A stretch of 17,070 bases of DNA from a virus, in the IMG/VR virus record IMGVR_UViG_3300045988_030628, positions 1 to 17,070 of that record; one strand, written 5' to 3'. Shown piece by piece: positions 87 through 16,661 of the stretch. A program made the translations under genes and the position numbers. Below the pieces are notes generated by a model. It was not told where the DNA came from. It did not search any database and was given only the letters and a program-made list of their open reading frames with translations. How positions within the stretch are numbered: position 1 is the stretch's first letter; every line of letters begins with the position of its first letter.

Positions 87-2696
87 TTAACAGCTAAGAG
101 ACGCACAGCTAACTGTTCCAACATCAAGCCTTCCAAAAGTTACATTAGTAAAACTTTCATATTGTGAATGATCGTCTTTGATTATATTAAAAGACAGTCT
201 TACTTCGCCTTTTTCAATCGAAATAGCACCGTTAAAATCGTAGAATTTAACCGGGTTATCTTGTTGAATATATCCACTAACTACTCCACCAAACATGTTT
301 GTACCAGGTTTACCACCTTGTACTAGACAATCATCGTCTACTGTTGCAATGACAGGAATTTCACCACCAGCAATGTTAGCCCCTGCAAAGTTAATGTATA
401 TACGTCCAACATTCCATGATATAACACCGTTAGACATCCATATTTCTCCTAACCCTTCTCCTGTTATTGAATTAACAACAGCTTTGTTTGCATGAAACGG
501 TACAGTCTGTTTATATTGTACGTCACAACTACCTGTTTCAATTCCGTCTAGTAAGTAACTCGCTAATAGGTCTTGATTTTCAGTGTTTGGGTGATTTTTG
601 TCACTAGCAAAACCACCATAGTTATGCATAATATACTCAGAGTTTGTAATATATTTTGCGCCATATTTACCACATCTTGTGTAAGCAGGTAGTACATTTT
701 TAACAATCTGCTCACGTTTATCGTAATTACCACTCCAACCAATCATAGCAACATAAATGTCAGCATTTATAAACATCTGTTTAGTTTTTTCAACTGTTCC
801 TTTGATAGCTGTTGAAATACCGGATACAGTACCAGGTGCATCATTCCAACCACCTGCTATTAGAATTTTTTTAATAGATAAACGTTGTACTTCTGTCATT
901 CTATTATAAGCGTCAGTAATAAGTCCCAGAAAAGTTTTACCGGCTACACCAACGTTTACAAATCCAGAACCGCCCTCAGTTTGTTTCCAAAAGTTGACAT
1001 CTTCTGACCACCCTGCATACTCACCCATTAAAGTAGGAAATCCTTTTATATGACCCTCTGGTGTGTAACCCTCTGCGTAGCTGTCGCCGATAATAAGAAC
1101 ATTAGTTGCTATAGTAGATGAAATAAGCGGTGTCTTATTGTTTGCTGTTAGAACTTTGACTATATTTCCACTTCGGTCTTGCATAGGTATATAGCTAAAG
1201 AACTCTGTTGTTTCTAACTGTGTTGGTGTTCTATATTTTAACGGAGTGGTCGGGTTAAGGTCAATCAATGACGCTTTTATTGTTTTATAGTTGCACGTTT
1301 CAGCTGATGTCCCTTTTATAGTCTGAGTAACACTTCCATAATTTTGATTAACAGCATCAGTATATGTTTCATTTTTTTGTACGCCATTTTCAACTTTGTT
1401 AGTTTTTGTTTCAATAGTATGAATGTTTGCATTTATATTTGCATCACCAGTGTATGTCTCTGTATTTGATTTTCCGTTAGTAGCAATATCACCACTGTAT
1501 GTTTCTGTTTTATCTACGCCAGTAGAAGTAACATTACCAGTATAGGTTTCAGTTTTATTTACTGCACTTTCTGTTATATCACCGTTAACAATTTCTTCTT
1601 TTGTTTGACACTCAGTTTTATTCTTACCACCAGAATTTAAAGAAACATCACCTGTATAATTTTCAGTCTTTGTTTTTCCGTTTGCTACAGTTTTCGTATA
1701 AGAGATATTAGCGTTTTCACCTCTAACATCTAACTGTTTAATACTTCCTTTGTAAACACTTCTTGCAATTTTAACAATGTTATTTTGGCCATTATCAACA
1801 TATGTTGTATAATTTCTAACACCGTTAATTTCAACATAGTTATCATTACCGTTAATAGTGAGTAGTTTTGTTGCATCACTAGTCACAGTGCATATAATAA
1901 CGTTATTATCAGAATCAAGTTTAATAAATTCCTTTCCAACTAAAGTAGAAATAGAATTGAAAGTCACATCACTACAATTAGAATCTCCCGTACCGCTTAT
2001 AGTCAAAGCATTTTCAATAGCATGGTCAAAAACTGTATGACTAATCTGTATATTATTACTAGAAGTAAGCTTAGCTAATGTGAAGCCATCAGTAAGAATA
2101 CACTGTGAGATACTAATATTAACACCAGTACATTCAATAAGGTCAACATTATTTACCTGTATATCACCATTACCATCAAACGTAAGACCTGTCAACGTCA
2201 GTGTTTTAACATTACCTTTTAACATAGGTTCTGTTACACCACCCCTAAGCACCAATCTAGTAACATACCTACCTTGCCCAAACATGGTTACGTCACTATT
2301 TTCTGGAAGTGTTAATGTGCCAGTAAGATAAGCACCACTTGGGAAGTAAACGCACATACCGTTATGAGCTTTAGCATAATCCAAACACCCTTGAATAGCT
2401 TCGGTATCATCTGCTGACCCATCACCAACAGCAGGTTTTAAATTTTCTGGTGGATTTTTAACACTAAGCATATAATCACTTAAAATCTCTGCAATAATGT
2501 TGTTAATTTCACCACTGGAAATGTACGTTTTAATGAGTTCTCTAATGTATTTTGGTAACTCATTGTTGTTCTTAATCAGCTCGTTTAACTTTTTAACAAT
2601 TTTACCTTGTACTTCCATATAACTAAGAGAGTCATCGTACACCAAAGGTAATACCTTTAAAGTCCAGTATCTAAGTGTTTCTACGTCTGTAAACAT
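87..2696 (-). CDS. Tailspike / pre-neck-appendage-like protein (gp12 position) with a beta-helix glycanase/lyase domain, a 15-aa repeat stalk and an SGNH esterase domain
   Basis: 869-aa ORF with GAAAGGAG 6 nt upstream of the ATG at 2696.
- aa ~88-330: GDGSADDTEAIQGCLDYA...VYFPSGAYL, the signature of pectate-lyase-3-type right-handed beta-helix tailspikes.
- aa ~336-455: about eight 15-aa repeats with a KTETYTGD core.
- aa ~530-705: SGNH/GDSL blocks IIGDSYAEG, GGSGF, GGWND and DKNHP.
- It is the last gene in the phi29-type order scaffold-capsid-knob-portal-collar-appendage. Confidence 0.85.
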   Translation of the reverse strand: MFTDVETLRYWTLKVLPLVYDDSLSYMEVQGKIVKKLNELIKNNNELPKYIRELIKTYISSGEINNIIAEILSDYMLSVKNPPENLKPAVGDGSADDTEAIQGCLDYAKAHNGMCVYFPSGAYLTGTLTLPENSDVTMFGQGRYVTRLVLRGGVTEPMLKGNVKTLTLTGLTFDGNGDIQVNNVDLIECTGVNISISQCILTDGFTLAKLTSSNNIQISHTVFDHAIENALTISGTGDSNCSDVTFNSISTLVGKEFIKLDSDNNVIICTVTSDATKLLTINGNDNYVEINGVRNYTTYVDNGQNNIVKIARSVYKGSIKQLDVRGENANISYTKTVANGKTKTENYTGDVSLNSGGKNKTECQTKEEIVNGDITESAVNKTETYTGNVTSTGVDKTETYSGDIATNGKSNTETYTGDANINANIHTIETKTNKVENGVQKNETYTDAVNQNYGSVTQTIKGTSAETCNYKTIKASLIDLNPTTPLKYRTPTQLETTEFFSYIPMQDRSGNIVKVLTANNKTPLISSTIATNVLIIGDSYAEGYTPEGHIKGFPTLMGEYAGWSEDVNFWKQTEGGSGFVNVGVAGKTFLGLITDAYNRMTEVQRLSIKKILIAGGWNDAPGTVSGISTAIKGTVEKTKQMFINADIYVAMIGWSGNYDKREQIVKNVLPAYTRCGKYGAKYITNSEYIMHNYGGFASDKNHPNTENQDLLASYLLDGIETGSCDVQYKQTVPFHANKAVVNSITGEGLGEIWMSNGVISWNVGRIYINFAGANIAGGEIPVIATVDDDCLVQGGKPGTNMFGGVVSGYIQQDNPVKFYDFNGAISIEKGEVRLSFNIIKDDHSQYESFTNVTFGRLDVGTVSCASLSC

Positions 2697-2714: not shown

Positions 2715-3494
2715 CTACCATAAACCAAAAAACAAATCGTCAAATTCTTTAATAACCTGCATATCAATATTCAAGAAAGTTTCACGGTATTTCATAATTA
2801 GCGAACTGTAGTTTTCTGAATTTTGTTTACCTACAATAGTTTCAATGTAATCTTCTGTAGTGTCAACATTACCACTACTCTGTTCACTGTCTTTATAGGT
2901 ACTTCCGCTTTTCTCAGTAGAATTACCACTTATACTTTCATTGCCACTATTTGTAGTGTTAATCTTTCTGGCATCTGTTAAATATGTCTGGTTATCAACA
3001 CCAACTAAACCGCCTTGAGGTGTATCACTGAACAAGTTCTTTTCTTCGCCGGTTGCATTACTATTTTTATTACTACTTGTTGTCTGTGTTGTGTTAACAT
3101 CTCTGCTTCCATTTCCGCTTCTATTGTCTGTGCTTTTTTCGTTTTCAGTCCTGTTGTGCTTTCTGGTTAAGTCAACATCATGGAATGGATCAAACTTTAA
3201 CTTAGCACTTTCATATAATTGATTATAGTATGGCATGATTTCTTCTAACTTAGTATTAACCCAAAGTTTCCAGATGCCTACAGTTTCACAGCAAATTTCT
3301 CTCAAATAATAGTGCTTTAAGATTTTACAACAAAGCACTTTTCTATAATCTTCATCAAAGAAAGGTACTTTACTGGTAAAAATTTTATCCCATGATTTTG
3401 ATATAACATCATCTACAGAGTTAAATCCAACACTTTCATCTAACCCGCTATCCGTTTCACAAATATACCTAACTTCTGTCGTGTATTTACTCAT
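2715..3494 (-). CDS. Lower collar protein (phi29 gp11 position)
   Basis: It lies directly downstream of, and overlaps by 8 nt, the portal gene, as gene 11 follows gene 10 in phi29. The size (259 aa from ATG 3494) fits. RBS GGTGGTG lies 6 nt upstream of that ATG. The ORF-track start at 3506 is a GTG with no RBS spacing. The central Ser/Asn/Thr-rich segment could be a tube-forming hairpin. The call is mainly by synteny. Confidence 0.65.
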   Translation of the reverse strand: MSKYTTEVRYICETDSGLDESVGFNSVDDVISKSWDKIFTSKVPFFDEDYRKVLCCKILKHYYLREICCETVGIWKLWVNTKLEEIMPYYNQLYESAKLKFDPFHDVDLTRKHNRTENEKSTDNRSGNGSRDVNTTQTTSSNKNSNATGEEKNLFSDTPQGGLVGVDNQTYLTDARKINTTNSGNESISGNSTEKSGSTYKDSEQSSGNVDTTEDYIETIVGKQNSENYSSLIMKYRETFLNIDMQVIKEFDDLFFGLW

Positions 3495-4377
3495 TTCCTG
3501 CACCACCTATCGTATCTGCACCGGGATCTTCTGGCTGATTATCGTCGCCAACCTGTTGAAAATCTTCACGATAATTGACTTCGATATTTGTACCAAACAT
3601 ATCATTTATTTTTTCAACAGCCTGTCGGCGTGATTCTAGTCTGCTATATCTACTAGCAATAGTACCACCTTGGTTACGTGTAACTTCATCAGTTATCAAT
3701 CTTTCTTTCTTCTGAATATTGATATTACTTATACCTAGATAAGTTAGTGCTTCATTCCATATTTGTGTTTTTAACTGGTACAGTTTATCACACACATATG
3801 GAGCATCAGTGCTAAGTGCTTTTAATGCGTTAATATCCAGATTCTTATCACCAAAAATAAAAGGTGCGTTTCCGTCATATTCTTTATACAGATTTAAAAG
3901 AGTAAGTCTTTGCTTTTCATTACCTTGTACCAACACAGGCGTTTTCTGTGCGTTTGCATTGATATCAATAATTCTATCAATATTGTATAATCTTCTTGCA
4001 AACATTTCAACATCAAGAATACTGTTACCATGCAGATAATTATTCCAGATAATAACGCTGTCTTTATAAGTTAGTAACTTCTGGTAATTGTTGTAACCAC
4101 TGTACGCTCTTCTTAGCAATGGGTTTCCATACACGTCAAGCCTGCCATTAACAATACAATCTAAGCACAAGTCTCCTATCACATCGTCTTTGAAATAAAC
4201 CATACAACCAGTTTCAAATAAATGTAATTCAAGATATCTTGCGTCAACTGTATCTGGTAAATTCTTCCATTCAAACATGGATATAGCAAGTTCTGTTAAT
4301 CTGTTCAAATACTGACGATAAGTAAGGTTGTTCAAAACCATACTTTCGTCACAAATGTCATGCTTTCTTCGTCCCAC
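3487..4377 (-). CDS. Portal / head-tail connector (upper collar, phi29 gp10-like)
   Basis: 296 aa with motifs recalled from the phi29 connector: MFEWKNLP, NANAQKTPVL, YDGNAPFIF, TDAPYVCDKL, KKERLITDEV. The start is GTG at 4375-4377, preceded by the strong RBS AAGGTGGTGA with 4-nt spacing. The basic N-terminus GRRKH parallels the RKR pRNA-binding N-terminus of phi29 gp10. Confidence 0.9.
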   Translation of the reverse strand: MGRRKHDICDESMVLNNLTYRQYLNRLTELAISMFEWKNLPDTVDARYLELHLFETGCMVYFKDDVIGDLCLDCIVNGRLDVYGNPLLRRAYSGYNNYQKLLTYKDSVIIWNNYLHGNSILDVEMFARRLYNIDRIIDINANAQKTPVLVQGNEKQRLTLLNLYKEYDGNAPFIFGDKNLDINALKALSTDAPYVCDKLYQLKTQIWNEALTYLGISNINIQKKERLITDEVTRNQGGTIASRYSRLESRRQAVEKINDMFGTNIEVNYREDFQQVGDDNQPEDPGADTIGGAGNE

Positions 4378-4392
4378 TTTATCACCACCTTA

Positions 4393-5943
4393 TTATACTG
4401 GACTATTGTCTAGGTCATATCTACCAACTTCATATCCATGTTTCCAGAATGTTACACCATTATCATAGATACTGCATATCTTTTTCATATCATCAGACGG
4501 GACACTCCCTGTCATTGTAGCACTAACAGTTTTTACATAGTTCCAATGTGGTCTACTGTTACGATTAGGAATTTTTACTCTCTTAGTTGCATATCCAAAC
4601 TTAGTAAAGAAATCGTCAATCATTCTTGCATATTGATAACTTACACTGATTCTTCCACCCCAAAATGTTTTCTTTCCACTTGCTACATCAACGTTACCAC
4701 TGTGAATATTACCCCTTGCTACATCAGCTGCAATAGATGCCTTATAACCCTGTGATAATAAATTCATAACTGTTCCAACTCCTGCTAGTACACCTAGTGG
4801 TGGAAAGCTTACGCCTAAGGCAGACAACCCTAGTGCAGATACACCTGCGGTTGCTGTTGTAGCTAAAGGCAATGCGTTCTGTGCTAACCACGCTTTGAAA
4901 GAATCAGTTGACCAACTGCACATTGGATAATCGTCAAGTACCAATGATTCACCGTTAAGAGTTGTACCTACCTTACTACCCTTGTATCCGTTTGGTCTTA
5001 ATGCTACTTGAATAGGCATAGTTACTGGAACATCAACATGAAGTGCTACGGTTAAATTGTTAAAAAATTCATACCTAAAACTAGCTGTAGATTTTCCGTT
5101 TTCTACTGATAAATAGTTATATGGATAAGTGTACAGTTTGTTATTTTTAGGTTTATACCCGTCAAGCGTATCACGTGTTGTTAATGCAGGAACAGAAATG
5201 TCAAACCCAAAAGCTCCTTTTGAAAATAGTAATTGTAGACCGTCATCTGGAATAGCTTTACCTGTAGCTATAACAGGGCACATGTAAAGACCTACAATAG
5301 CGTCTGGTTTTTGGTTATAACTTTGCAATTTTTTAGTTAAAGCTGAAACACCTTTTTTATTTACATTGTATGCAAATAATGTACAACCACCATAAATGCC
5401 ATCATATAACGTTCCGTCTGGGTCTTCTGCGGTGTCACAGACCATGCATATAATACACAAAGGGTCAAGTGCTTTAGTTAATTTACCGTAGCCATTGTAC
5501 ACATATTCCCCAGTGTCAAGGTTCTCCGGTATAATGTTAGCACCTATCTGGTCACTTTCCGAGTGTTCTCTTTCAACAAAACAATAATCTGGTGAGCAAT
5601 CAAATAACCATGTCTGCATGACATCAATTTCAAAACTGATATTAGATGTAACGTCATTTACATATTCAACACTTGTAATAAATGCATAAAACCATTTGTT
5701 ACCATATGCTGAATTTTGAAACATCATGTAGTTACAGTCATAAAGACTGTCAGCGTTAATACCAACTCTTGCTACTCCTTTTTGTACTCTTTGATAAGTA
5801 TAGTTACTCATATTGTACTTAGTCAAGGCACTGAAATACCCAAACTGTGCGCTCATACTGTCAAACCATAATGTGTGGTCATAGGTTGTATCTAGTGGTA
5901 CATCTTTTAGTAACTTTATATTAGTCTGAGGATTTATATACAT
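4393..5943 (-). CDS. Tail knob protein (phi29 gp9-like)
   Basis: 516 aa. The N-terminal block YMMFQNSAYGNKWFYAFITSVEY...FEIDVMQTWLF matches the conserved gp9 signature as recalled (YIMFQNADYGNKWFYAFVT...FEIDVLQTWMF). A Gly/Ala-rich hydrophobic segment (ATAGVSALGLSALGVSFPPLGVLAGVG) resembles the membrane-active loop of gp9. RBS GAAAGGAA is present. Confidence 0.9.
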   Translation of the reverse strand: MYINPQTNIKLLKDVPLDTTYDHTLWFDSMSAQFGYFSALTKYNMSNYTYQRVQKGVARVGINADSLYDCNYMMFQNSAYGNKWFYAFITSVEYVNDVTSNISFEIDVMQTWLFDCSPDYCFVEREHSESDQIGANIIPENLDTGEYVYNGYGKLTKALDPLCIICMVCDTAEDPDGTLYDGIYGGCTLFAYNVNKKGVSALTKKLQSYNQKPDAIVGLYMCPVIATGKAIPDDGLQLLFSKGAFGFDISVPALTTRDTLDGYKPKNNKLYTYPYNYLSVENGKSTASFRYEFFNNLTVALHVDVPVTMPIQVALRPNGYKGSKVGTTLNGESLVLDDYPMCSWSTDSFKAWLAQNALPLATTATAGVSALGLSALGVSFPPLGVLAGVGTVMNLLSQGYKASIAADVARGNIHSGNVDVASGKKTFWGGRISVSYQYARMIDDFFTKFGYATKRVKIPNRNSRPHWNYVKTVSATMTGSVPSDDMKKICSIYDNGVTFWKHGYEVGRYDLDNSPV

Positions 5944-9565: not shown

Positions 9566-9865
9566 TTATTCTTCAATTCTATCCAACATATACTCTACTG
9601 CACATGCATGTTCAATCCTGCAACCTCTAGCATTTTCCCAACCTTTAGAAAAATATACTAAATCTGCTGATGATAATAGTTCAATAGATTTTCCTAGAAA
9701 CCATAACGGTTTTGCATCATGTGGAGCTGATTCAAAGAAAGAATCAATAACTTGAAACGGTTCTGTTAGTATATCACTAATCTTTGAAACAATTCGCATA
9801 CGTTCTTCTTTGATTTCTTCGTTTGTTTTCCTGTTCATTGGCTGTGAAATAAATACTTGTAACAT
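9566..9865 (-). CDS. DUF4406-like / nucleoside 2-deoxyribosyltransferase-fold small protein
   Basis: 99 aa from ATG 9865 (RBS GAAAGGAAAA). The start is 1 nt after the holin stop, so the longer 142-aa ORF-track version is rejected. The pattern VFISQPM...W....L.SADLVYFSKGWENARGCRIEHACA and the length fit my recollection of the DUF4406 family (GWExSxGAxxE near the C-terminus). Confidence 0.55.
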   Translation of the reverse strand: MLQVFISQPMNRKTNEEIKEERMRIVSKISDILTEPFQVIDSFFESAPHDAKPLWFLGKSIELLSSADLVYFSKGWENARGCRIEHACAVEYMLDRIEE

Positions 9866-9866
9866 T

Positions 9867-10217
9867 TTAATTTTCCTTTCTGGTGTTTGAAACGTGAAAA
9901 AGTTCCATAAGTTTACTTGGTAAAAGGTCTGAGTTAATATTGGATATGTTTTCGAGTATCGAAACAAGCTCAGTTGTACATGTATAAAGAACAATAACTG
10001 GTAATATTGCTACACCTAGTTTGAACCCTATAATGTCTCCATATCCGTCAACTAACCACGCCGTAAAATAACAGAAAATAAAACCCACTTTTTTGAAAAG
10101 TCCATCACGTAGTTTGGCGGATTTAATGTCTTTATTTTTTACGGCTGACACGATTCCTGTTATCACGTCTAGGGCGTTAAACCCTAACGCTACAAAGATT
10201 GGATATAAGTTTTCCAT
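9867..10217 (-). CDS. Holin (three predicted TM segments; phage_holin_4-like)
   Basis: 116 aa from ATG 10217 (RBS AAGAAAGGAGA). Hydrophobic segments are LYPIFVALGFNALDVITGIVSAV, VGFIFCYFTAWLVDGYG and GVAILPVIVLYTCTTELVSIL. The KLRDGLFKKVG motif lies between TM1 and TM2, and the C-terminus is polar. The gene sits upstream of the endolysin. Confidence 0.8.
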   Translation of the reverse strand: MENLYPIFVALGFNALDVITGIVSAVKNKDIKSAKLRDGLFKKVGFIFCYFTAWLVDGYGDIIGFKLGVAILPVIVLYTCTTELVSILENISNINSDLLPSKLMELFHVSNTRKEN

Positions 10218-10247
10218 GGGATCTCCTTTCTTATTTAATTTATCTTT

Positions 10248-10276
10248 ATTATAGCACAATACTTGCAAAAAATCAA
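10248..10276 (-). promoter_or_regulatory. Promoter of the holin-to-tailspike (late) operon
   Basis: On the minus strand: TTGATT (10271-10276), 17-nt spacer, TGcTATAAT (-10 at 10248-10253 with extended TG). The predicted start site is ~24 nt upstream of the holin ATG. The -10 context tgcTATAATAAAG is shared with the right-end promoters. Confidence 0.7.
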
Positions 10277-10291
10277 TGGGTGTGTTATAAT
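10263..10291 (+). promoter_or_regulatory. Promoter of the packaging ATPase gene
   Basis: On the plus strand: TTGCAA (10263-10268), 17-nt spacer, TGtTATAAT (-10 at 10286-10291). It lies ~19 nt upstream of the AAAGGAG RBS/ATG region and overlaps the minus-strand promoter back-to-back. Confidence 0.7.
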
Positions 10292-10316
10292 TAAATATAG
10301 AAAGGAGATTTTTTGC

Positions 10317-11351
10317 ATGGGAAAGTATTATGACGGTACTAAATTATTGTCAATGTTAGATATAAATGGTAACAAACCAGAAATCTATATGGTTACTTCC
10401 AACCGAAGCGCAGGAAAGACAACCTATTTTAGCAGACTGTGCATAAACAGATTTCTTGATAAAGGTGAAAAGTTTGGGCTTATTTACCGTTATAATTATG
10501 AACTTGATAATGTGGTAGATAAATTCTATAAAGATATAGGTAGTTTGTTCTTCACAGGTCATAACATGACGTCAAAAAGACGGGCAAGTGGCATTTTCCA
10601 TGAGTTATTCTTAGACGAAAAAAGCTGTGGCTATGCTATCAGTTTAAACAGTGCCGACCAGTTGAAAAAATACAGCCATTTATTTGCTGATATTTCTAGG
10701 CTAGAATTTGATGAATTTCAAAGCGAATCTAATCACTACTGTCCTGATGAAGTAAGAAAGTTCATCAGTATTCATACGTCTATTGCAAGAGGCCAAGGAG
10801 AGCAAGTTCGTTATGTACCTGTGTATATGATTGCGAACCCTGTCAGCCTTATCAACCCATATTATACAAAAATGGAAATAAGTGCTAGACTTCATAAAGA
10901 CACAAAATTTTTACGCGGTGACGGTTTTGTGTTAGAACAGGGATTCAATAAATCAGCAAGCGAAGCGCAGAAAACTAGCGGATTCAATCGAGCTTTTAAG
11001 AAAGACAGTTATGTTGGTTATAGTAGTGAATGTGTTTATTTGAATGATAACCAGAGTTTTATTGAAAGACCTACTGGAAAAAATAAATACCTTTGCACAC
11101 TTAAATATAAAGGCTGTGAGTTTGGTATAAGAGAATTTACTGAGTATGGTTACTTATACTGTGATGATAGACCAGATCGCACCTTTGGCTTAAAAATCAG
11201 CGTAACTACTGACGACCACGAGATCAATTATGTTATGTTAAAACGTAACGATTTCTTTTTGAATAATCTTCGATATTTGTTTGAGCGTGGTTGCTTTAGA
11301 TTTAAAGACCTAAGGTGTAAAGAAGCAACATTAAGCGCACTTAGTTACTAG
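10317..11351 (+). CDS. DNA encapsidation (packaging) ATPase, phi29 gp16-like
   Basis: 344 aa from ATG 10317 (RBS AAAGGAG). Walker A is TSNRSAGKTT and Walker B is RLEFDEFQ. The layout resembles gp16 (GxxGxGKS...IVFDEF...NPY). It is the only plus-strand gene. Confidence 0.9.
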   Translation: MGKYYDGTKLLSMLDINGNKPEIYMVTSNRSAGKTTYFSRLCINRFLDKGEKFGLIYRYNYELDNVVDKFYKDIGSLFFTGHNMTSKRRASGIFHELFLDEKSCGYAISLNSADQLKKYSHLFADISRLEFDEFQSESNHYCPDEVRKFISIHTSIARGQGEQVRYVPVYMIANPVSLINPYYTKMEISARLHKDTKFLRGDGFVLEQGFNKSASEAQKTSGFNRAFKKDSYVGYSSECVYLNDNQSFIERPTGKNKYLCTLKYKGCEFGIREFTEYGYLYCDDRPDRTFGLKISVTTDDHEINYVMLKRNDFFLNNLRYLFERGCFRFKDLRCKEATLSALSY

Positions 11352-11352
11352 G

Positions 11353-11469
11353 TATATCTACTCATGCGATTAACATTGAGAACATAGGATAGCACTCTTG
11401 AAAGTATAGAGCCTGTGTTACTTGTCGTTTTCGCTGAACGCAATGATTAACACATGAGTTATAGATATA
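11353..11469 (+). ncRNA. Candidate prohead/packaging RNA (pRNA-like three-way junction)
   Basis: A 24-bp interrupted closing helix forms between 11353-11378 and 11441-11469, as 8 + 6 + 1 + 4 + 5 bp with small bulges. It encloses two hairpins:
- Long hairpin 11381-11419: 8 bp including a U11385-G11415 wobble valid only on the plus strand, a 6-nt bulge AUAGCA, a 4-bp stem and a 9-nt loop.
- Short hairpin 11426-11440: cgtt/aacg stem with loop uucgcug.
The element starts 2 nt after the ATPase stop and ends just before the terminator. Confidence 0.45.
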
Positions 11470-11472
11470 AAT

Positions 11473-11511
11473 AAAACAGAGGGTAAGAAGTTAGTTCTCC
11501 CTCTGTTTTTT
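11473..11511. terminator. Bidirectional intrinsic terminator between the convergent ATPase and lipoprotein genes
   Basis: Stem cagaggg (11477-11483) pairs with ccctctg (11499-11505), and an inner agaa pairs with ttct. The stem is flanked by AAAA upstream and TTTTTT downstream, so it can act on both strands. Confidence 0.9.
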
Positions 11512-11514
11512 ATA

Positions 11515-11736
11515 CTATTTTACATATAATGAACCATCTTGATTAAGTCTAGGTGTTACACCTTTATTAGATGCTATATACCAAACGTTTGTATCAGGGT
11601 CTTTAAATGTAAATACAAAAGCTGAACCACTATTAAGTATTATACTGTAGTCAGTTTTTTCAGCTGGTACTTTGTTACCAGTCGTACACCCTGTTAATGT
11701 AAAACAAAATAGCAATAAACATATAATTTTCTTCAT
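11515..11736 (-). CDS. Small secreted lipoprotein (candidate superinfection-exclusion factor)
   Basis: 73 aa. MKKIICLLLFCFTLTGC is a signal peptide with lipobox L-T-G-C. RBS GAGGT. It is the last gene of the replication operon. The mature part (KDPDTNVWYIASNKGVTPRLNQDGS) resembles a small Firmicutes family I recall as DUF6440-like (uncertain). Confidence 0.75.
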   Translation of the reverse strand: MKKIICLLLFCFTLTGCTTGNKVPAEKTDYSIILNSGSAFVFTFKDPDTNVWYIASNKGVTPRLNQDGSLYVK

Positions 11737-11741
11737 GTTTT

Positions 11742-13724
11742 TTACCTCATTTCATATGATGTATCTACTAATAGAACGCCACCACGTATCCTCTTTGGTC
11801 GTAATTTTCCAGGTACTTTCAATCCTATTTTAAATGATCTATAATCACGTTTAATAGGGTTGTTATCTTCGTAAAATAGAAATTCTTTTTCTTCATCACT
11901 CCATTCTTTATTTATATCAGCATCACCTGACAGTGATAATTCAAATAAATCTTTACAACGTTTTGGCATACCTGCACACTTTATATTGTTGTATGGTTTT
12001 TCTATTGACTCTAGGTTCTCTGCAACTACGTGTTCAATGTAAGTTTTCTGTCTTGTGAATATTGCTTTATCCCAACATGATTCCAATTTCCAACAACAAA
12101 AGTTTTTATCATGTACTTTGATTCCAATTATTTCTTCTGGTGGTAAATCACAGTGTATGCTATCTGTATCTGCATAAATAAAACCTGCTTTATCAACACC
12201 ATGATAATTCGCTTGTGCCGCTCTGATGGTAAAGTTTCTTGCATAACTTGTGATAGCTGAACCAACAGGGATATACCCTGGTTTCTTGTTTGATTCTGTA
12301 ACAGGTAAAAACCCTATTGTTTTATCATCTTTCACATATGCCAGTTTGAACGATGAATCTTTACTAGATGCCATTTTTCCGTAAAGATTATTAAGAAAAA
12401 GTTTAGCCAACTCACGCAATGCACCCTTGCTAACAAGCTTCTGGTGCTTGTATTTTTCAATGTATTCATCAAAGATACCTGTCAAAGCATAAAACCAACA
12501 TCCATCCAGTATTTCAAAATCAACTAAATCATAGTGGTCTTTCAACAACAGGTAATCTGTCATTGTCAAGACTAATTCAACCCTTGTATCTCTTAATATG
12601 CCGTCCTTATCTTTATAGAATGAAAAGTAAGAATCTGTTTTACTGTCATAAATATCTGACGATTCCAGTGCTTCTGTTCCTTTATATAAGTAAGAATTTT
12701 TTATCTGTATAAATGGTAACTTATCTTTCTTGATATAAAATCTTGTTTTAACTCTAACAAAATAATATTTATTATCTGCTATAGCTTCGTCTGGAATATA
12801 GTTTCCTTTCCAGAAACAAGGTTTACCAATAGGATACCTGTTCCCAGATTCAGACGACATCATGGATGGGTACAGTGAATTTACGTCAGCCGTAGTTCCG
12901 TTTGTTTTTATTTGGTTCTCTTTACCTTTTACTAAATAACACCAACCACCTCTGTATGATTTTCTTATATAATCTCCTGCGTTTTCATATGTGTATTCTA
13001 TAGGGTTAATACTCACATTATACACGTCTGGAAACATTTCCTTATACTCTAACTGGTTTTTGAGTGATTTCTTACATATCTCTTTGTATTCTTCCAAACA
13101 GCAAGAACCTATTGTCAGTTTATCATGCCCCTCATTGAACATAATTTCAAGTGCTTCTTTAACAACAAGGACATCATTAGCAATGTATTCTTTTTCACTG
13201 TCTGATATCTCACACCCTGCATATCGAAAACCTGTGTATTCCATGTCAAGCTTCTTATGCTTTGTGCCAAAGTTATCACCAATTCTTTTAACACTAAATG
13301 GCAAAAGCTTTAGTGAATCCCTTATTTCAATAAAGTGATTATTTACCTTTATAATAATGGTGTACCACATTCCTTTATCTGATATACTATATTTAAAGGA
13401 ATTATTTTCCATAAATTTTTCTTGCAACCACTCTACCTCATTTATAGCTTCACCTGTTTTTCTGTAAGCCTGTTTGAACCCTTTATCTATCATCAAATAT
13501 GACAACCAGAATGAACCATCAAACTTTAAGTTGTGGTAATAGGCTACGATATTACAATCTTGCTTTACAAAGTAATTAAACTGTTCATCAATTGAGTGAA
13601 AAATACTAACATTTTCTGTGAATAGTTCTACCGAAGCTGATGCCCATACCTCTGTGAACTCTTGTCCTTTATAAACAGTTGTTTCAAAGTCACACATAAA
13701 ATATCTGTACTTTTTAATCTTCAA
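11742..13724 (-). CDS. Protein-primed family-B DNA polymerase (phi29 gp2-like)
   Basis: 660 aa. Motifs: ExoI FMCDFETT, ExoII YYHNLKFDGSF, ExoIII YIANDV, motif A DVNSLYPS, motif B KLFLNNLYGK, motif C YADTDS, and KxY as RQKTYI. The annotated start is TTG at 13722-13724, overlapping the end of the upstream gene. The first in-frame ATG would leave only 2 residues before ExoI, so TTG is preferred. Confidence 0.95.
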   Translation of the reverse strand: MKIKKYRYFMCDFETTVYKGQEFTEVWASASVELFTENVSIFHSIDEQFNYFVKQDCNIVAYYHNLKFDGSFWLSYLMIDKGFKQAYRKTGEAINEVEWLQEKFMENNSFKYSISDKGMWYTIIIKVNNHFIEIRDSLKLLPFSVKRIGDNFGTKHKKLDMEYTGFRYAGCEISDSEKEYIANDVLVVKEALEIMFNEGHDKLTIGSCCLEEYKEICKKSLKNQLEYKEMFPDVYNVSINPIEYTYENAGDYIRKSYRGGWCYLVKGKENQIKTNGTTADVNSLYPSMMSSESGNRYPIGKPCFWKGNYIPDEAIADNKYYFVRVKTRFYIKKDKLPFIQIKNSYLYKGTEALESSDIYDSKTDSYFSFYKDKDGILRDTRVELVLTMTDYLLLKDHYDLVDFEILDGCWFYALTGIFDEYIEKYKHQKLVSKGALRELAKLFLNNLYGKMASSKDSSFKLAYVKDDKTIGFLPVTESNKKPGYIPVGSAITSYARNFTIRAAQANYHGVDKAGFIYADTDSIHCDLPPEEIIGIKVHDKNFCCWKLESCWDKAIFTRQKTYIEHVVAENLESIEKPYNNIKCAGMPKRCKDLFELSLSGDADINKEWSDEEKEFLFYEDNNPIKRDYRSFKIGLKVPGKLRPKRIRGGVLLVDTSYEMR

Positions 13725-15051: not shown

Positions 15052-15121
15052 GTTTTTTCTTCCTCTCTTTCTTTATTTTTAAAAAACGTCAAAATATAGT
15101 TTAGTGCTATAAAGCACTAGA

Positions 15122-15212
15122 GTAGGTGACAGGGATTGAACCTGTTTCACGTGAATGAGCGATGATAGGATTTATTTAAGATTCACGCATTTTACCAATA
15201 AACTACACCTAC
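15122..15212 (-). tRNA. tRNA-like gene: canonical acceptor, D and T arms, CUU (Lys-type) anticodon loop, but a 21-nt insertion in the anticodon arm (non-canonical, possibly non-decoding)
   Basis: Minus strand: GTAGGTG-TA-GTTT-ATTGGTA-AAAT-G-CGTGA-ATCTTAA-[ATAAATCCTATCATCGCTCAT]-TCACG-TGAA-ACAGG-TTCAATC-CCTGT-CACCTAC.
- 7-bp acceptor stem.
- D loop with GG.
- T loop TTCAATC.
- T before and A after the CTT triplet.
- No encoded CCA.
- A 6-bp hairpin (15102-15119, tagtgc/gcacta) follows. Confidence 0.5.
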
Positions 15213-16115: not shown

Positions 16116-16313
16116 TTACATTACATAACCTTCGTCTATGGCATATGAAAGTGTGTACTCATTCACAAAGATTATTTCTTTGACTCCACCTTCATCATAC
16201 TCATAGCACTCATTATTTTCATGTATTCTAACTAACCCTAAAGTAAAGTCAATACCGTCACATTCATCAAATTGTGAAGAATCACCATTCCAAAAAGTTA
16301 TAAGTAAACTCAT
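16116..16313 (-). CDS. Small, highly acidic early protein (65 aa)
   Basis: ATG at 16313 with RBS AAGGGGG 7 nt upstream. The track start at 16319 is a GTG 1 nt from the RBS. There are about 14 Asp/Glu against 2 Lys/Arg. No recognisable motif. Confidence 0.6.
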   Translation of the reverse strand: MSLLITFWNGDSSQFDECDGIDFTLGLVRIHENNECYEYDEGGVKEIIFVNEYTLSYAIDEGYVM

Positions 16314-16325
16314 ATTCACACCCCC

Positions 16326-16661
16326 TTATACTTCACGGTAGGTTACACGTTCCTTGCAACCCCATGTACCACGTCCATAGTCTTTATCAAATTTTGAAAT
16401 ATGTTGTGCTGATGTGTTAGTGTAACCGTAAACACCTCTTAGAAAGTCATAGCAAGTGTCTGAACTTTTCTCAATAATTGCTACTACTGTATTGTAACTA
16501 CGTAAAACGTAGAAACTAGGTGTTTCGTAAACGTATGCCTGGCATGAGCGAAGTCGCTTGCCTACACTAATTGAACAGTAATTCAATTCCTCATTAAAAC
16601 GATCGACTGCCGCTAACACTTCATTGTTAACTTGTATCTGTAATTTTTTACATATTCTCAT
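16326..16661 (-). CDS. Hypothetical early protein (111 aa)
   Basis: ATG at 16661 with RBS AGGGGGT. It contains FYVLRSYNTVVA...YGYTNTSAQHISKF, a pattern I have seen in mobile-element proteins but cannot name. Confidence 0.65.
   Translation of the reverse strand: MRICKKLQIQVNNEVLAAVDRFNEELNYCSISVGKRLRSCQAYVYETPSFYVLRSYNTVVAIIEKSSDTCYDFLRGVYGYTNTSAQHISKFDKDYGRGTWGCKERVTYREV

What the first reader, a model, noticed from the sequence alone, without database searches (positions are those of the whole stretch)
11353..11469. 117-nt three-way-junction RNA candidate immediately downstream of the packaging ATPase: putative pRNA
phi29-type packaging motors (gp10 portal plus gp16 ATPase) use a prohead RNA, and no such RNA is obvious elsewhere in this genome. 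This intergenic segment matches pRNA in several ways:
- Closing helix: a long, bulged, 24-bp helix formed by its two ends, like pRNA helix A, which binds the ATPase.
- Long arm: 11381-11419, carrying a 6-nt bulge AUAGCA.
- Short hairpin: 11426-11440, with loop UUCGCUG.
- Order: the 5'-A, long arm, short arm, A-3' arrangement matches the pRNA A / C-E / D layout.
- Loop complementarity: bulge UAGC (11390-11393) can pair with loop GCUG (11433-11436) as 3 Watson-Crick pairs plus 1 G-U. This is analogous to the 4-bp hand-in-hand loop interaction that builds the pRNA ring.
- Strand: the G-U pair in the long arm (U11385-G11415) exists only on the plus strand, the ATPase sense strand.
- Boundaries: the element starts 2 nt after the ATPase stop and is followed by a strong terminator, which would define the 3' end.
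- Portal: it retains a basic N-terminus (GRRKH) like the pRNA-binding RKR of gp10.
Basis: partly seen in the sequence, partly recalled or inferred. Interest (0 to 1): 0.75.

Follow-up and report, generated by a model that had tools for sequence, protein, structure and literature searches.

The report
Prohead packaging RNA beside motor ATPase
A 117-base structured RNA encoded right after the DNA-packaging ATPase gene of this small gut phage is an unrecognised relative of the phi29 'prohead RNA' (pRNA), so this odd RNA part of a viral DNA-packaging motor is probably not confined to Bacillus phages.

Summary

**Conservation.** Window 11353-11469 (+) folds into a three-way junction: a 24-bp closing helix, a long arm with a 6-nt 5' bulge, and a short hairpin. 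The same element lies next to the ATPase gene in all 81 relatives examined.
- 89% of pair cells are paired, against 32-48% when partners are slid.
- 30 of 40 pairs show compensatory changes.
- G-U pairs outnumber A-C mismatches 252 to 58, so it is a plus-strand RNA.

**Loop pairing.** The bulge (UAGC, 11390-11393) and the hairpin loop (GCUG, 11433-11436) covary across relatives: UAGC/GCUA, AAGC/GCUU, ACGC/GCGU, GGAA/UUCC and CUGUA/UACAG.

**Link to known pRNAs.** A covariance model built only from gut-phage sequences finds genuine pRNAs.
- GA-1: the annotated pRNA is the top hit (29 bits, E ~1e-4).
- Bfsp1 and B103: top hits.
- phi29: the correct locus, but weakly (15 bits).

**Wider occurrence.** The model also finds unannotated candidates in cultured phages CS229P1, CH17P1 and phiCP7R. 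Rfam's pRNA model misses the window, but it also misses GA-1 and B103.

**Context.** gp10-type portal and gp16-type ATPase genes are present.

**Not shown.** Function, ring formation and 5'-end formation are inferred.

**Verdict.** New variant of a known kind, with high specialist interest.

The parts
10263..10291 (+). Promoter-like site for the ATPase/RNA transcription unit: -35 TTGCAA, 17-nt spacer, extended -10 TGTTATAAT
   Evidence: 10 of 12 consensus matches, TG present; sequence. The mechanical ORF 'start' TTG at 10263 is the -35 hexamer.
10317..11351 (+). gp16-type DNA packaging ATPase. The likely true start is ATG 10317, after RBS AAAGGAG at 10301-10307. It is the only long plus-strand gene in this part of the genome.
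   Evidence: Pfam PF05894 Podovirus_Gp16, 2.6e-31. PDB 7jqq phi29 gp16, 1.6e-24, covering residues 44-349 including the C-terminal domain. PHROG terminase, 3.4e-53. Relatives align from MGKYYDG.
11353..11469 (+). pRNA-like RNA, whole element (equivalent to pRNA domain I, 117 nt)
   Evidence: Covariance-model hits R1 115.7 bits and R3 74.1 bits. Fold. Covariation.
11353..11378 (+). Helix A, 5' strand. The outer segment UAUAUCU is near-invariant as GUAUCU in this clade.
   Evidence: Pairs with 11441-11469. The middle and inner parts covary in the close clade; the outer part covaries only across clades.
11441..11469 (+). Helix A, 3' strand, with 3-nt bulge UAU (11460-11462) and invariant AGAUAUA end
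11379..11388 (+). C-like helix, 5' strand (pairs with 11412-11422)
   Evidence: 9 of 10 pairs show changes on both sides (helix 4). The GG/CC closing pairs are near-invariant.
11389..11394 (+). CE-like ('right-hand') bulge AUAGCA. UAGC (11390-11393) pairs with GCUG (11433-11436).
   Evidence: all 5 column pairs have double changes; the 4 core pairs are 90-100% paired; covariation score 0.618 against 0.116 or less when slid.
11395..11411 (+). E-like 4-bp helix (CUCU/AGAG) with conserved loop UGAAAGUAU
   Evidence: All 4 pairs covary (helix 5). Loop motif U/GUGAAA is shared with other clades; UUGAGU and GUAAAA variants are shared with phi29/B103/Bfsp1 and GA-1.
11412..11422 (+). C-like helix, 3' strand
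11423..11425 (+). U-rich 3-nt junction linker (UUG), in the same position as the phi29 UUU bulge of the three-way junction
   Evidence: Rfam consensus ',,' = UUU; aligned to each other.
11426..11440 (+). D-like hairpin: stem CGUU/AACG, 'left-hand' loop UUCGCUG (11430-11436)
   Evidence: helix 6 (3 of 4 pairs covary, 96.8% paired)
11473..11511 (.). Bidirectional intrinsic terminator (A-run, 15-bp interrupted stem, U-run) between the convergent ATPase/RNA unit and the minus-strand genes
   Evidence: -17.7 and -17.3 kcal/mol; z -4.9 and -5.2. Every relative has a hairpin plus U-run here, with differing sequence.
3487..4377 (-). gp10-type portal (connector) with basic N-terminus VGRRKH, the presumed docking partner
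   Evidence: Pfam PF05352, 2.7e-69; translation

Best explanation
The segment encodes a prohead/packaging RNA (pRNA): a diverged homologue of the phi29/GA-1 pRNA.

**Expression (mostly inferred).**
- It is transcribed on the plus strand with the ATPase gene, from the promoter at 10263-10291.
- Transcription ends at the terminator at 11473-11511.
- The 5' end is probably released by RNA processing. This step is inferred; no promoter lies directly upstream in this clade.

**Fold (shown by covariation).** The 117-nt RNA forms the pRNA three-way junction.

**Proposed mechanism (inferred, by analogy with phi29).**
- Copies link head-to-tail into a ring through intermolecular pairing of the bulge (UAGC, 11390-11393) with the hairpin loop (GCUG, 11433-11436) of the neighbouring copy.
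- The ring sits on the narrow end of the gp10-type portal in the prohead.
- The long helix A points outward and docks the gp16-type ATPase.
- The ATPase then pumps terminal-protein-primed DNA into the capsid.
- The RNA leaves before tail attachment.

**Shown here:** a conserved plus-strand RNA structure, the covarying loop-loop pairing, detectable similarity to bona fide pRNAs, presence of the protein partners, and tight linkage to the ATPase gene.

**Not shown:** ring formation, prohead binding, requirement for packaging and 5' processing.
For: **Conservation and structure**
- The element is present once per locus, always on the ATPase strand, in the window and 81 relatives with ATPase identity of 67-99%.
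- Close clade: 89.3% of pair cells are paired against 32-48% slid. 30 of 40 pairs have compensatory changes. Covariation score is 0.533 against about 0.10. 0 of 500 shuffles reach the observed values.
- Family-wide alignment: 89.0% paired, 39 of 40 pairs compensatory, score 0.791 against 0.154 or less.
- Most relatives fold into the same shape on their own.

**Loop-loop pairing**
- It covaries: 88.6% paired against 12-51% slid; all 5 pairs have double changes.

**Strand**
- G-U/U-G occupy 252 cells at 29 pairs. A-C/C-A occupy 58 cells at 10 pairs.

**Architecture compared with the Rfam pRNA consensus**
- Helix A of about 22-24 bp with a 3-nt bulge.
- C helix of 9-10 bp, with the bulge on its 5' side.
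- A 4-bp E helix flanked by GG...CC.
- A 3-nt U-rich linker.
- A 4-6 bp D hairpin with no linker back to helix A.
- Total length 117 nt against 118.

**Model R3 (13 gut-phage sequences, no Bacillus phage)**
- GA-1 1766-1881 (-): 29.2 bits, E 9.5e-5. This is the annotated pRNA.
- Bfsp1 626-743 (-): 27.5 bits.
- B103 174-290 (-): 18.0 bits, the top hit in that genome.
- phi29 215-310 (-): 15 bits, with C, E and D elements aligned in register.

**Protein partners**
- gp16-type ATPase and gp10-type portal.

**Diverged homologues**
- They sit directly upstream or downstream of the ATPase gene.
- They carry their own strong promoters in CH17P1, HM2, MT835904 and several IMG/VR clades, as expected of a discrete small RNA gene.
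Against: - There is no experimental evidence of any kind: no transcript, prohead association or RNase sensitivity.
- Rfam RF00044 gives no hit even at E of 10 or less.
- The genomic position differs from Bacillus phages. There the pRNA lies in the left early region with its own promoter; here it is in the 3' UTR of the ATPase gene.
- No promoter is visible directly upstream in this clade, so an unproven processing step is needed.
- Covariation cannot distinguish intermolecular pairing from an intramolecular pseudoknot.
- The four outer helix-A pairs never vary within the close clade. Their pairing is supported only across clades.
- Covariance-model E-values are rough. The phi29 hit itself is weak: 15 bits, second in that genome.
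- Alignments A2 and A4 were fitted to the model, which flatters the modelled helices. This does not apply to the loop-loop pairs.
Confidence: 0.85

Rival explanations
1. It is a cis-acting regulatory or stabilising element of the ATPase mRNA. As a 3' UTR structure in this clade it would protect the message. As a 5' leader attenuator in the CH17P1-type clades it might be bound by the ATPase for autoregulation. It would have no role as a motor component.
For: - The RNA is always physically linked to the ATPase gene in the gut-phage clades: directly downstream or directly upstream.
- In the upstream arrangement, helix A is followed by a U-run and looks like a terminator or attenuator in front of the ATPase ribosome-binding site.
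- No separate promoter is seen in the window clade.
Against: - It does not explain the covarying bulge/loop pairing.
- It does not explain the constant pRNA-sized three-way junction.
- It does not explain the model-level similarity to true pRNAs, which are not next to gene 16.
- It does not explain the related element in phiCP7R, which lies far from its ATPase gene.
- A regulatory role could coexist with a motor role.
Confidence: 0.07
2. It is a trans-acting small RNA with a different job, such as regulating host or phage genes or acting as an anti-defence decoy. The bulge/loop pairing would be an intramolecular pseudoknot that merely stabilises the fold.
For: - Covariation cannot tell intra- from intermolecular pairing.
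- Some minimum-free-energy folds place the bulge-loop pairing within one molecule (L031, L068, L069).
- Own promoters in several clades fit any small RNA gene.
Against: - The helix lengths that set the geometry match phi29: bulge about 10 bp and loop about 4-6 bp from the junction. In phi29 the pairing is known to be intermolecular (PMC5066667).
- Model similarity to bona fide pRNAs.
- It occurs strictly in phages with gp10/gp16 motors.
Confidence: 0.05
3. It is a DNA-level element, such as a cruciform or protein-binding inverted repeat, or simply part of an extended terminator region between convergent genes.
For: - Both strands fold about equally well as single sequences.
- The element abuts a bidirectional terminator.
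- The terminal motifs TATC...GATA are invariant in the close clade.
Against: - A strong excess of G-U over A-C on the plus strand (252 against 58 cells) is not expected for DNA symmetry.
- Branched three-helix covariation and the loop-loop covariation have no DNA rationale.
- In other clades the element lies upstream of the ATPase gene, with no convergent genes.
Confidence: 0.01

Closest known systems
Prohead/packaging RNA (pRNA) of Bacillus phages phi29, B103/Nf/M2, SF5, GA-1 and relatives (Rfam RF00044 covers the phi29-type core)
   Same: - Size: 117 nt, against 117-120 nt for domain I.
- The same order of helix A, C-E arm and D hairpin.
- A bulge on the 5' side of the long arm, adjacent to a 4-bp E helix.
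- A U-rich 3-nt junction linker.
- A covarying 4-5 bp bulge/hairpin-loop complementarity.
- Shared E-loop motifs in sister clades: UUGAGU and GUAAAA.
- Encoded by a phage with a gp10 portal, gp16 ATPase, protein-primed type B DNA polymerase and a 17-kb genome.
- Detectable by a covariance model in the reverse direction.
   Different: - No recognisable primary-sequence similarity, and no RF00044 hit.
- Encoded immediately after the ATPase gene on the same transcript, not in the left early region behind its own promoter.
- Clade-specific invariant helix-A terminus (GUAUCU/AGAUAUA).
- The 3-nt helix-A bulge is on the 3' strand, not the 5' strand.
- Longer E loop (9 nt against 6).
- The host lineage is gut Clostridia (cultured relative on Clostridium symbiosum), not Bacillus.
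Predicted but unvalidated 'packaging RNA' annotations in non-Bacillus phi29-like phages (for example the misc_RNA at 16295-16402 in the Actinomyces phage Av-1 GenBank record)
   Same: The idea that phi29-like phages outside Bacillus carry a pRNA, proposed from folding of a genome segment.
   Different: - The Av-1 annotation is a single-sequence prediction that overlaps ORFs on the opposite strand.
- Model R3 does not pick it up. The best Av-1 hit is elsewhere (4457-4552, 19 bits, E 0.07).
- The present element is backed by covariation in more than 60 distinct sequences and by model similarity to true pRNAs.
3' UTR-derived bacterial small RNAs (a processing-generated class)
   Same: Position immediately after a stop codon, sharing the mRNA's terminator, with no own promoter in this clade.
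   Different: Those RNAs act by base-pairing with target mRNAs. Here the conserved features are a self-complementary loop pair and a protein-docking helix. Sister clades encode the same RNA as a primary transcript.

Membership tests
pRNA (prohead/packaging RNA) | Three-way junction: long helix A formed by the 5' and 3' ends, C-E arm and D hairpin in that order, domain I of about 117-120 nt | tested here: met
   Fold compared with the phi29 fold and the Rfam consensus. Conserved with compensatory changes.
pRNA (prohead/packaging RNA) | Complementary CE (right-hand) bulge and D (left-hand) loop that covary among relatives | tested here: met
   the 4 core pairs are 90-100% paired, every pair has double changes, covariation score 0.618 against 0.116 or less when slid. 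The pairing was not part of the covariance model.
pRNA (prohead/packaging RNA) | The loop-loop pairing is intermolecular and builds a ring (pentamer or hexamer) | not testable with these tools
   Sequence covariation cannot separate intra- from intermolecular pairing. Only the geometry (helix lengths as in phi29) argues for it.
pRNA (prohead/packaging RNA) | Encoded by a phage with a gp10-type portal and a gp16-type packaging ATPase | tested here: met
   PF05352, 2.7e-69; PF05894, 2.6e-31; PDB 7jqq, 1.6e-24. Protein-primed DNA polymerase PHROG, 7.9e-127.
pRNA (prohead/packaging RNA) | Sequence and structure similarity to known pRNAs detectable by covariance model | tested here: met
   Reverse direction, using model R3 built only from gut-phage sequences:
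- GA-1 annotated pRNA: 29.2 bits, E 9.5e-5.
- Bfsp1: 27.5 bits.
- B103: 18 bits (top hit).
- phi29: 15 bits (correct locus and register).
 E-values are rough.
pRNA (prohead/packaging RNA) | Match to Rfam RF00044 (Phage_pRNA) at its gathering score | tested here: not met
   No hit at gathering or at E of 10 or less. The same model also misses GA-1, B103, Bfsp1 and PumA2 at gathering and scores only phi29-type sequences (145 bits). This failure therefore says little.
pRNA (prohead/packaging RNA) | Separate early transcription unit near the left genome end | tested here: not met
   Here the RNA lies 1 nt after the ATPase stop codon, with no promoter in between. Sister clades have their own promoters but are still adjacent to the ATPase gene. 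This feature describes Bacillus phages and is not needed for function.
pRNA (prohead/packaging RNA) | Bound to proheads, required for DNA packaging, absent from mature virions | not testable with these tools
   Needs experiments on a cultured relative (CS229P1, CH17P1 or phiCP7R).
Self-cleaving ribozymes, riboswitches and other curated RNA families (Rfam 15) | Match to any of the 4227 covariance models | tested here: not met
   Only terminator-driven chance matches of 17 bits or less in 11200-11650.

The most novel reading that the evidence does not exclude
pRNA may be an ancestral, widespread component of phi29-type packaging motors in phages of Firmicutes, not a Bacillus-phage peculiarity.

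**Where candidates were found.**
- Human-gut Clostridia phages: this window's clade, CS229P1, CH17P1, HM2.
- Clostridium perfringens Guelinviridae: phiCP7R/CPV4/ZP2 group.
- Possibly Enterococcus phage Athos (weak hit only).

**Genetic arrangement in the gut clades.** The RNA has moved around the genome and is genetically welded to the ATPase gene in one of two ways:
- As a 3' UTR that must be processed out.
- As a promoter-proximal leader whose helix A doubles as a terminator. This would set the RNA-to-ATPase ratio.

**Helix-A termini.** Clade-specific invariant termini (GUAUCU/AGAUAU against AAGGUUA/UAACCUU) would be the ATPase-docking code.
Probability: 0.6. Interest if true: 0.85.

Novelty: new variant of a known kind. 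Interest (0 to 1): 0.75.

Why it matters
**State of the field.** pRNA has been known since 1987. It is the only RNA known to be an essential part of a viral DNA-packaging motor, and it is a workhorse of RNA nanotechnology.
- Reviews up to 2024 call it unique to phi29 and related Bacillus phages (PMC11476376, PMC5066667).
- A 2025 survey that added 12 pRNAs still lists only Bacillus and Cytobacillus phages (PMC12670572).

**What this finding adds.**
- A well-supported homologue in gut Clostridia phages, with further candidates in C. perfringens phages. This widens the family's host range.
- Dozens of natural loop-pair and three-way-junction variants.
- Cultured systems in which the requirement for the RNA can be tested: CS229P1 on C. 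symbiosum, CH17P1 on Hungatella, phiCP7R on C. perfringens.

**Questions it opens.**
- It bears on whether pRNA is ancestral to phi29-type motors.
- The coupling to the ATPase gene suggests co-expression or co-evolution of the RNA with its protein partner.

**Annotation gap.** Rfam's model is too narrow, and GenBank records of these phages leave the locus blank.

Tried and rejected
**Searches that gave little**
- Rfam at gathering and at E of 10 or less, on the window, on 10 diverged loci and on L124 alone: no pRNA hit and nothing else credible.
- Megablast and blastn of the window and of the element against GenBank phages: only MT835814 matched the element.
- RNAalifold on the plain MAFFT alignment recovered only 18 pairs, because the inner helices were misaligned. 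It was replaced by model-guided alignment.
- Model R2 (close clade only) could not see phi29. Only the broader R3 could.
- The HM2 ATPase found just one IMG/VR relative, so that clade could not be analysed.

**Ideas tested and dropped**
- Single-sequence bulge/loop complementarity against shuffles is not significant for the window, and not for phi29 either. It is therefore not usable as evidence.
- A promoter directly upstream of the element in the close clade: none was convincing. The conserved TTA(G/A)GGTATC spans the stop codon.
- A coding explanation: only a 31-aa minus-strand ORF overlaps, and indels are not in threes.
- Hammerhead or another ribozyme: the conserved bases sit in the terminal loop, not the junction, and there is no Rfam hit.

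**Other phi29-like phages**
- R3 gave no credible hit in Staphylococcus phage P68 or Streptococcus phage Cp-1.
- Hits in Av-1 and Athos were weak.
- The LE1-1 gap at 12524-12732 was inspected by eye without a clear result.
Full report
**1. What the window is**

The 17,070-bp window looks like a complete or nearly complete small phi29-type podovirus genome. The identified genes are:
- gp10-type portal: 3487-4377, minus strand, Pfam Phage_connector 2.7e-69.
- gp9-like tail knob.
- Major head protein.
- Lysis genes.
- Protein-primed type B DNA polymerase: 11742-13724, minus strand.
- gp16-type packaging ATPase.

The ATPase is the only long plus-strand gene in its neighbourhood. Its transcription unit is compact:
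- Promoter-like site at 10263-10291: TTGCAA, 17-nt spacer, TGTTATAAT.
- Ribosome-binding site AAAGGAG.
- ATG at 10317.
- Stop codon at 11349-11351.

No GenBank phage is close at the DNA level. The nearest cultured relatives are Clostridium phages CS229P1-3, which infect Clostridium symbiosum. Their ATPase is 69% identical.

**2. The observation**

Its features are:
- A 24-bp interrupted closing helix.
- A long arm with the 6-nt bulge AUAGCA.
- A 4-bp distal helix and a 9-nt loop.
- A 3-nt linker.
- A short hairpin with loop UUCGCUG.

A strong bidirectional terminator follows at 11473-11511.

Two points cannot be settled from this sequence alone:
- The minus strand folds nearly as well.
- The UAGC/GCUG complementarity is no better than chance. 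The same test gives the same answer for phi29's own AACC/GGUU.

**3. Conservation and covariation**

A scan of IMG/VR with the ATPase returned 80 loci with 67-99% identity, and GenBank added one more.
- In every one, an element of 111-119 nt follows the ATPase stop codon.
- In 69 of the 82 sequences (window included) it starts 0-4 nt after the stop. In the rest a 10-54 nt insertion comes first.
- Each is followed by a hairpin and U-run terminator whose sequence differs between lineages.
- A covariance model seeded with the window's fold finds exactly one hit per locus, always on the ATPase strand, at 60-119 bits.

On the resulting alignment of 63 distinct sequences:

| Measure | Observed | Control |
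|---|---|---|
| Pair cells forming standard pairs | 89.3% | 32-48% (partners slid) |
| Pairs with compensatory double changes | 30 of 40 | - |
| Covariation score | 0.533 | about 0.10 (slid) |
| Shuffles reaching the observed values | 0 of 500 | - |

Most sequences also fold into the same shape on their own.

G-U/U-G pairs occupy 252 cells at 29 pair positions. A-C/C-A occupy 58 cells at 10 positions, mostly at two weak pairs. The functional molecule is therefore plus-strand RNA, not DNA and not the antisense strand.

**4. The loop-loop pairing**

The covariance model does not model this pairing, so the test is not biased by model fitting. On fixed alignment columns, the last bases of the bulge pair with the hairpin loop in 88.6% of cells, against 12-51% when slid. 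All five column pairs show double changes.

Examples read directly from the sequences:
- UAGC/GCUG (window)
- UAGC/GCUA
- AAGC/GCUU
- ACGC/GCGU
- UGCA/UGCA
- GGAA/UUCC
- AAACA/UGUUU
- CUGUA/UACAG

**5. Relation to known pRNAs**

The architecture matches the Rfam pRNA consensus element for element:

| Feature | This element | phi29-type pRNA |
|---|---|---|
| Helix A | about 24 bp, 3-nt bulge | about 22 bp, 3-nt bulge |
| C helix | 10 bp | 9 bp |
| Bulge position | 5' side of the long arm | same |
| E helix | 4 bp, flanked by GG...CC | same |
| Linker before the D hairpin | 3 nt, U-rich | UUU |
| D stem | 4 bp | 6 bp |
| Linker back to helix A | none | none |
| Total length | 117 nt | 118 nt |

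RF00044 does not score the window. It also fails on GA-1, B103, Bfsp1 and PumA2 at its gathering threshold, so that failure says little.

I therefore ran the reverse test. Model R3 was built from 13 gut-phage sequences only. Searched with filters off, it gave:

| Genome | Hit | Score | Note |
|---|---|---|---|
| GA-1 | 1766-1881 (-) | 29.2 bits, E 9.5e-5 | Top hit in an 81-kb search; coincides with the annotated pRNA at 1719-1879 |
| Cytobacillus phage Bfsp1 | 626-743 (-) | 27.5 bits | A pRNA is reported for this phage in PMC12670572; its coordinates were not checked |
| B103 | 174-290 (-) | 18 bits | Top hit in that genome |
| phi29 | 215-310 (-) | 15 bits | C, E and D elements aligned in register |

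The E-values are rough. Noise in these searches reached about 20 bits. The GA-1 and Bfsp1 hits stand clear of that. The B103 and phi29 hits count only because they fall on the right locus and strand.

E-loop motifs are also shared:
- UUGAGU in phi29, B103, Bfsp1 and gut clade L124.
- GUAAAA in GA-1 and L103.

**6. Wider family and how it is expressed**

*Cultured and GenBank relatives*
- CS229P1: the element scores 91 bits in an unannotated gap.
- Hungatella phage CH17P1: a diverged copie lies directly upstream of the ATPase gene. It sits behind a near-consensus promoter (TTGACA, 17-nt spacer, TGGTAACAT).
- Clostridium phage HM2, MT835904 and MT836152: it lies just downstream of the ATPase gene. 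HM2 and MT835904 have promoter-like hexamers directly upstream.

*IMG/VR clades related to CH17P1*
- They show the arrangement promoter, RNA, U-run, ribosome-binding site, ATPase.
- Helix A is followed by a U-run, so it may itself act as a terminator. In that case the ATPase would be made by read-through.

*Family-wide alignment of 36 sequences*
- 89.0% of cells are paired, and 39 of 40 pairs are compensatory.
- This includes the outer helix A, which is invariant within each clade: GUAUCU/AGAUAU here, AAGGUUA/UAACCUU in the CH17P1 group.

*Window clade*
- No promoter separates the ATPase stop codon from the RNA.
- The RNA is therefore most likely made from the ATPase transcript and trimmed at its 5' end. 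This step is inferred.

*Other phi29-like phages*
- R3 finds a 31.6-bit hit (E 2e-5) in an intergenic gap of C. perfringens phage phiCP7R.
- That element has the same fold and a GCCA/UGGC loop pair.
- It is conserved in 17 C. perfringens phage records, and 14 of these carry no annotation under the match.
- Hits in Enterococcus phage Athos and Actinomyces phage Av-1 are weak. P68 and Cp-1 gave nothing credible.

**7. Interpretation**

The best explanation is a pRNA homologue that works as in phi29:
- It forms a ring on the portal through intermolecular bulge/loop pairing.
- Helix A docks the gp16-type ATPase.

Shown here:
- The RNA structure and its strand.
- The covarying loop pair.
- Similarity to true pRNAs.
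- The protein partners.
- The genetic linkage to the ATPase gene.

Inferred only:
- Multimerisation.
- Prohead binding.
- Essentiality for packaging.
- 5' processing.

Rival explanations are a purely cis-regulatory mRNA element, another small-RNA function with an intramolecular pseudoknot, and a DNA element. Each is weaker, for the reasons given with it. A regulatory side-role in the leader arrangement is compatible with the main reading.

**8. Novelty**

The searchable literature describes pRNA as confined to phi29 and related Bacillus or Cytobacillus phages.
- PMC5066667 (2016) says the same in substance.
- PMC12670572 (2025) lists only such phages and never mentions Clostridium.
- Searches for a pRNA in Clostridium, gut, Guelinviridae or Rountreeviridae phages found nothing.
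- The paper on C. perfringens podoviruses mentions pRNA only as the partner of phi29 gp16.
- A predicted 'packaging RNA' is annotated in the Av-1 GenBank record. It is a single-sequence prediction at a locus my model does not support.

I therefore class this as a new variant of a known kind. It is the same RNA machine part, in a new host lineage, with a new genomic arrangement, and beyond the reach of the current Rfam model.

Noticed in passing
window 15120-15212 (-): The only Rfam hit in the window is a tRNA (50.4 bits). ARAGORN calls it tRNA-Phe with anticodon AAA and a length of 93 nt. Both the length and the anticodon are unusual.
   Followed up: no
window 10248-10291: There are back-to-back promoter-like sites. 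The plus-strand site is TTGCAA-17-TATAAT, for the ATPase/RNA unit. The minus-strand site is TTGATT-17-TATAAT (10276-10248), facing the holin/lysis genes. Both have a TG extension. The ORF finder's TTG start at 10263 is really the -35 hexamer.
   Followed up: partly
L069, L072, L074, L076 (about 4054-4079) and L075, L078, L079 (about 4054-4103): Some relatives carry an insertion between the ATPase stop codon and the RNA. One type is 26 nt and contains the perfect palindrome TGTTTCACGTGAAACA. The other is 50 nt and contains the hairpin GCCAGC-TTAC-GCTGGC. Their function is unknown; a protein-binding site or a processing signal is possible.
   Followed up: no
L136 (Clostridium phage phiCP7R, NC_017980.1) 16467-16576 (-): This is an unannotated GC-rich (55%) intergenic element upstream of the capsid module.
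- It has the same three-way-junction fold and a GCCA/UGGC bulge/loop pair.
- R3 scores it at 31.6 bits.
- It is 90-100% identical in 17 C. perfringens phage records.
- It is a candidate pRNA for Guelinviridae.
   Followed up: partly
L083 (Hungatella phage CH17P1) 13651-13800 and IMG/VR loci L099-L126, about 1300-1500: In these clades the RNA lies in the leader of the ATPase gene, behind a near-consensus promoter. Helix A is followed directly by a U-run and then the ATPase ribosome-binding site. This suggests terminator read-through coupling of RNA and ATPase expression.
   Followed up: partly
L128-L131 (B103, GA-1, Bfsp1, PumA2): Rfam RF00044 at its gathering score (100 bits) detects none of these. 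GA-1 and B103 pRNAs are established and a Bfsp1 pRNA has been reported. The family model is effectively specific to phi29-type sequences.
   Followed up: yes
L133 (Actinomyces phage Av-1) 16295-16402 versus 4457-4552: The GenBank record annotates a 'packaging RNA' at 16295-16402 (+), overlapping minus-strand ORFs. The gut-phage model instead gives its best, though weak, hit in the intergenic gap at 4457-4552 (19 bits, E 0.07).
   Followed up: no
L132 (Enterococcus phage Athos) 4613-4730 (+): The top R3 hit in this genome is full length and lies in a 266-nt intergenic gap before the scaffolding gene. It scores only 15.5 bits (E 0.6), and the minimum-free-energy fold fits only partly.
   Followed up: partly
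window 9566-9994 (-) and 9867-10268 (-): A nucleoside 2-deoxyribosyltransferase-like ORF (PHROG 355, 3.6e-13) overlaps the holin-like ORF by about 130 nt in the mechanical ORF list. The true starts were not resolved.
   Followed up: no
L088 (Eggerthella phage LE1-1) 12524-12732: This is a 210-nt GC-rich gap two genes upstream of the ATPase. It contains a CCCG-GUGAAA-CGGG hairpin that resembles the E helix and loop of the CH17P1 clade. No model hit was obtained.
   Followed up: partly
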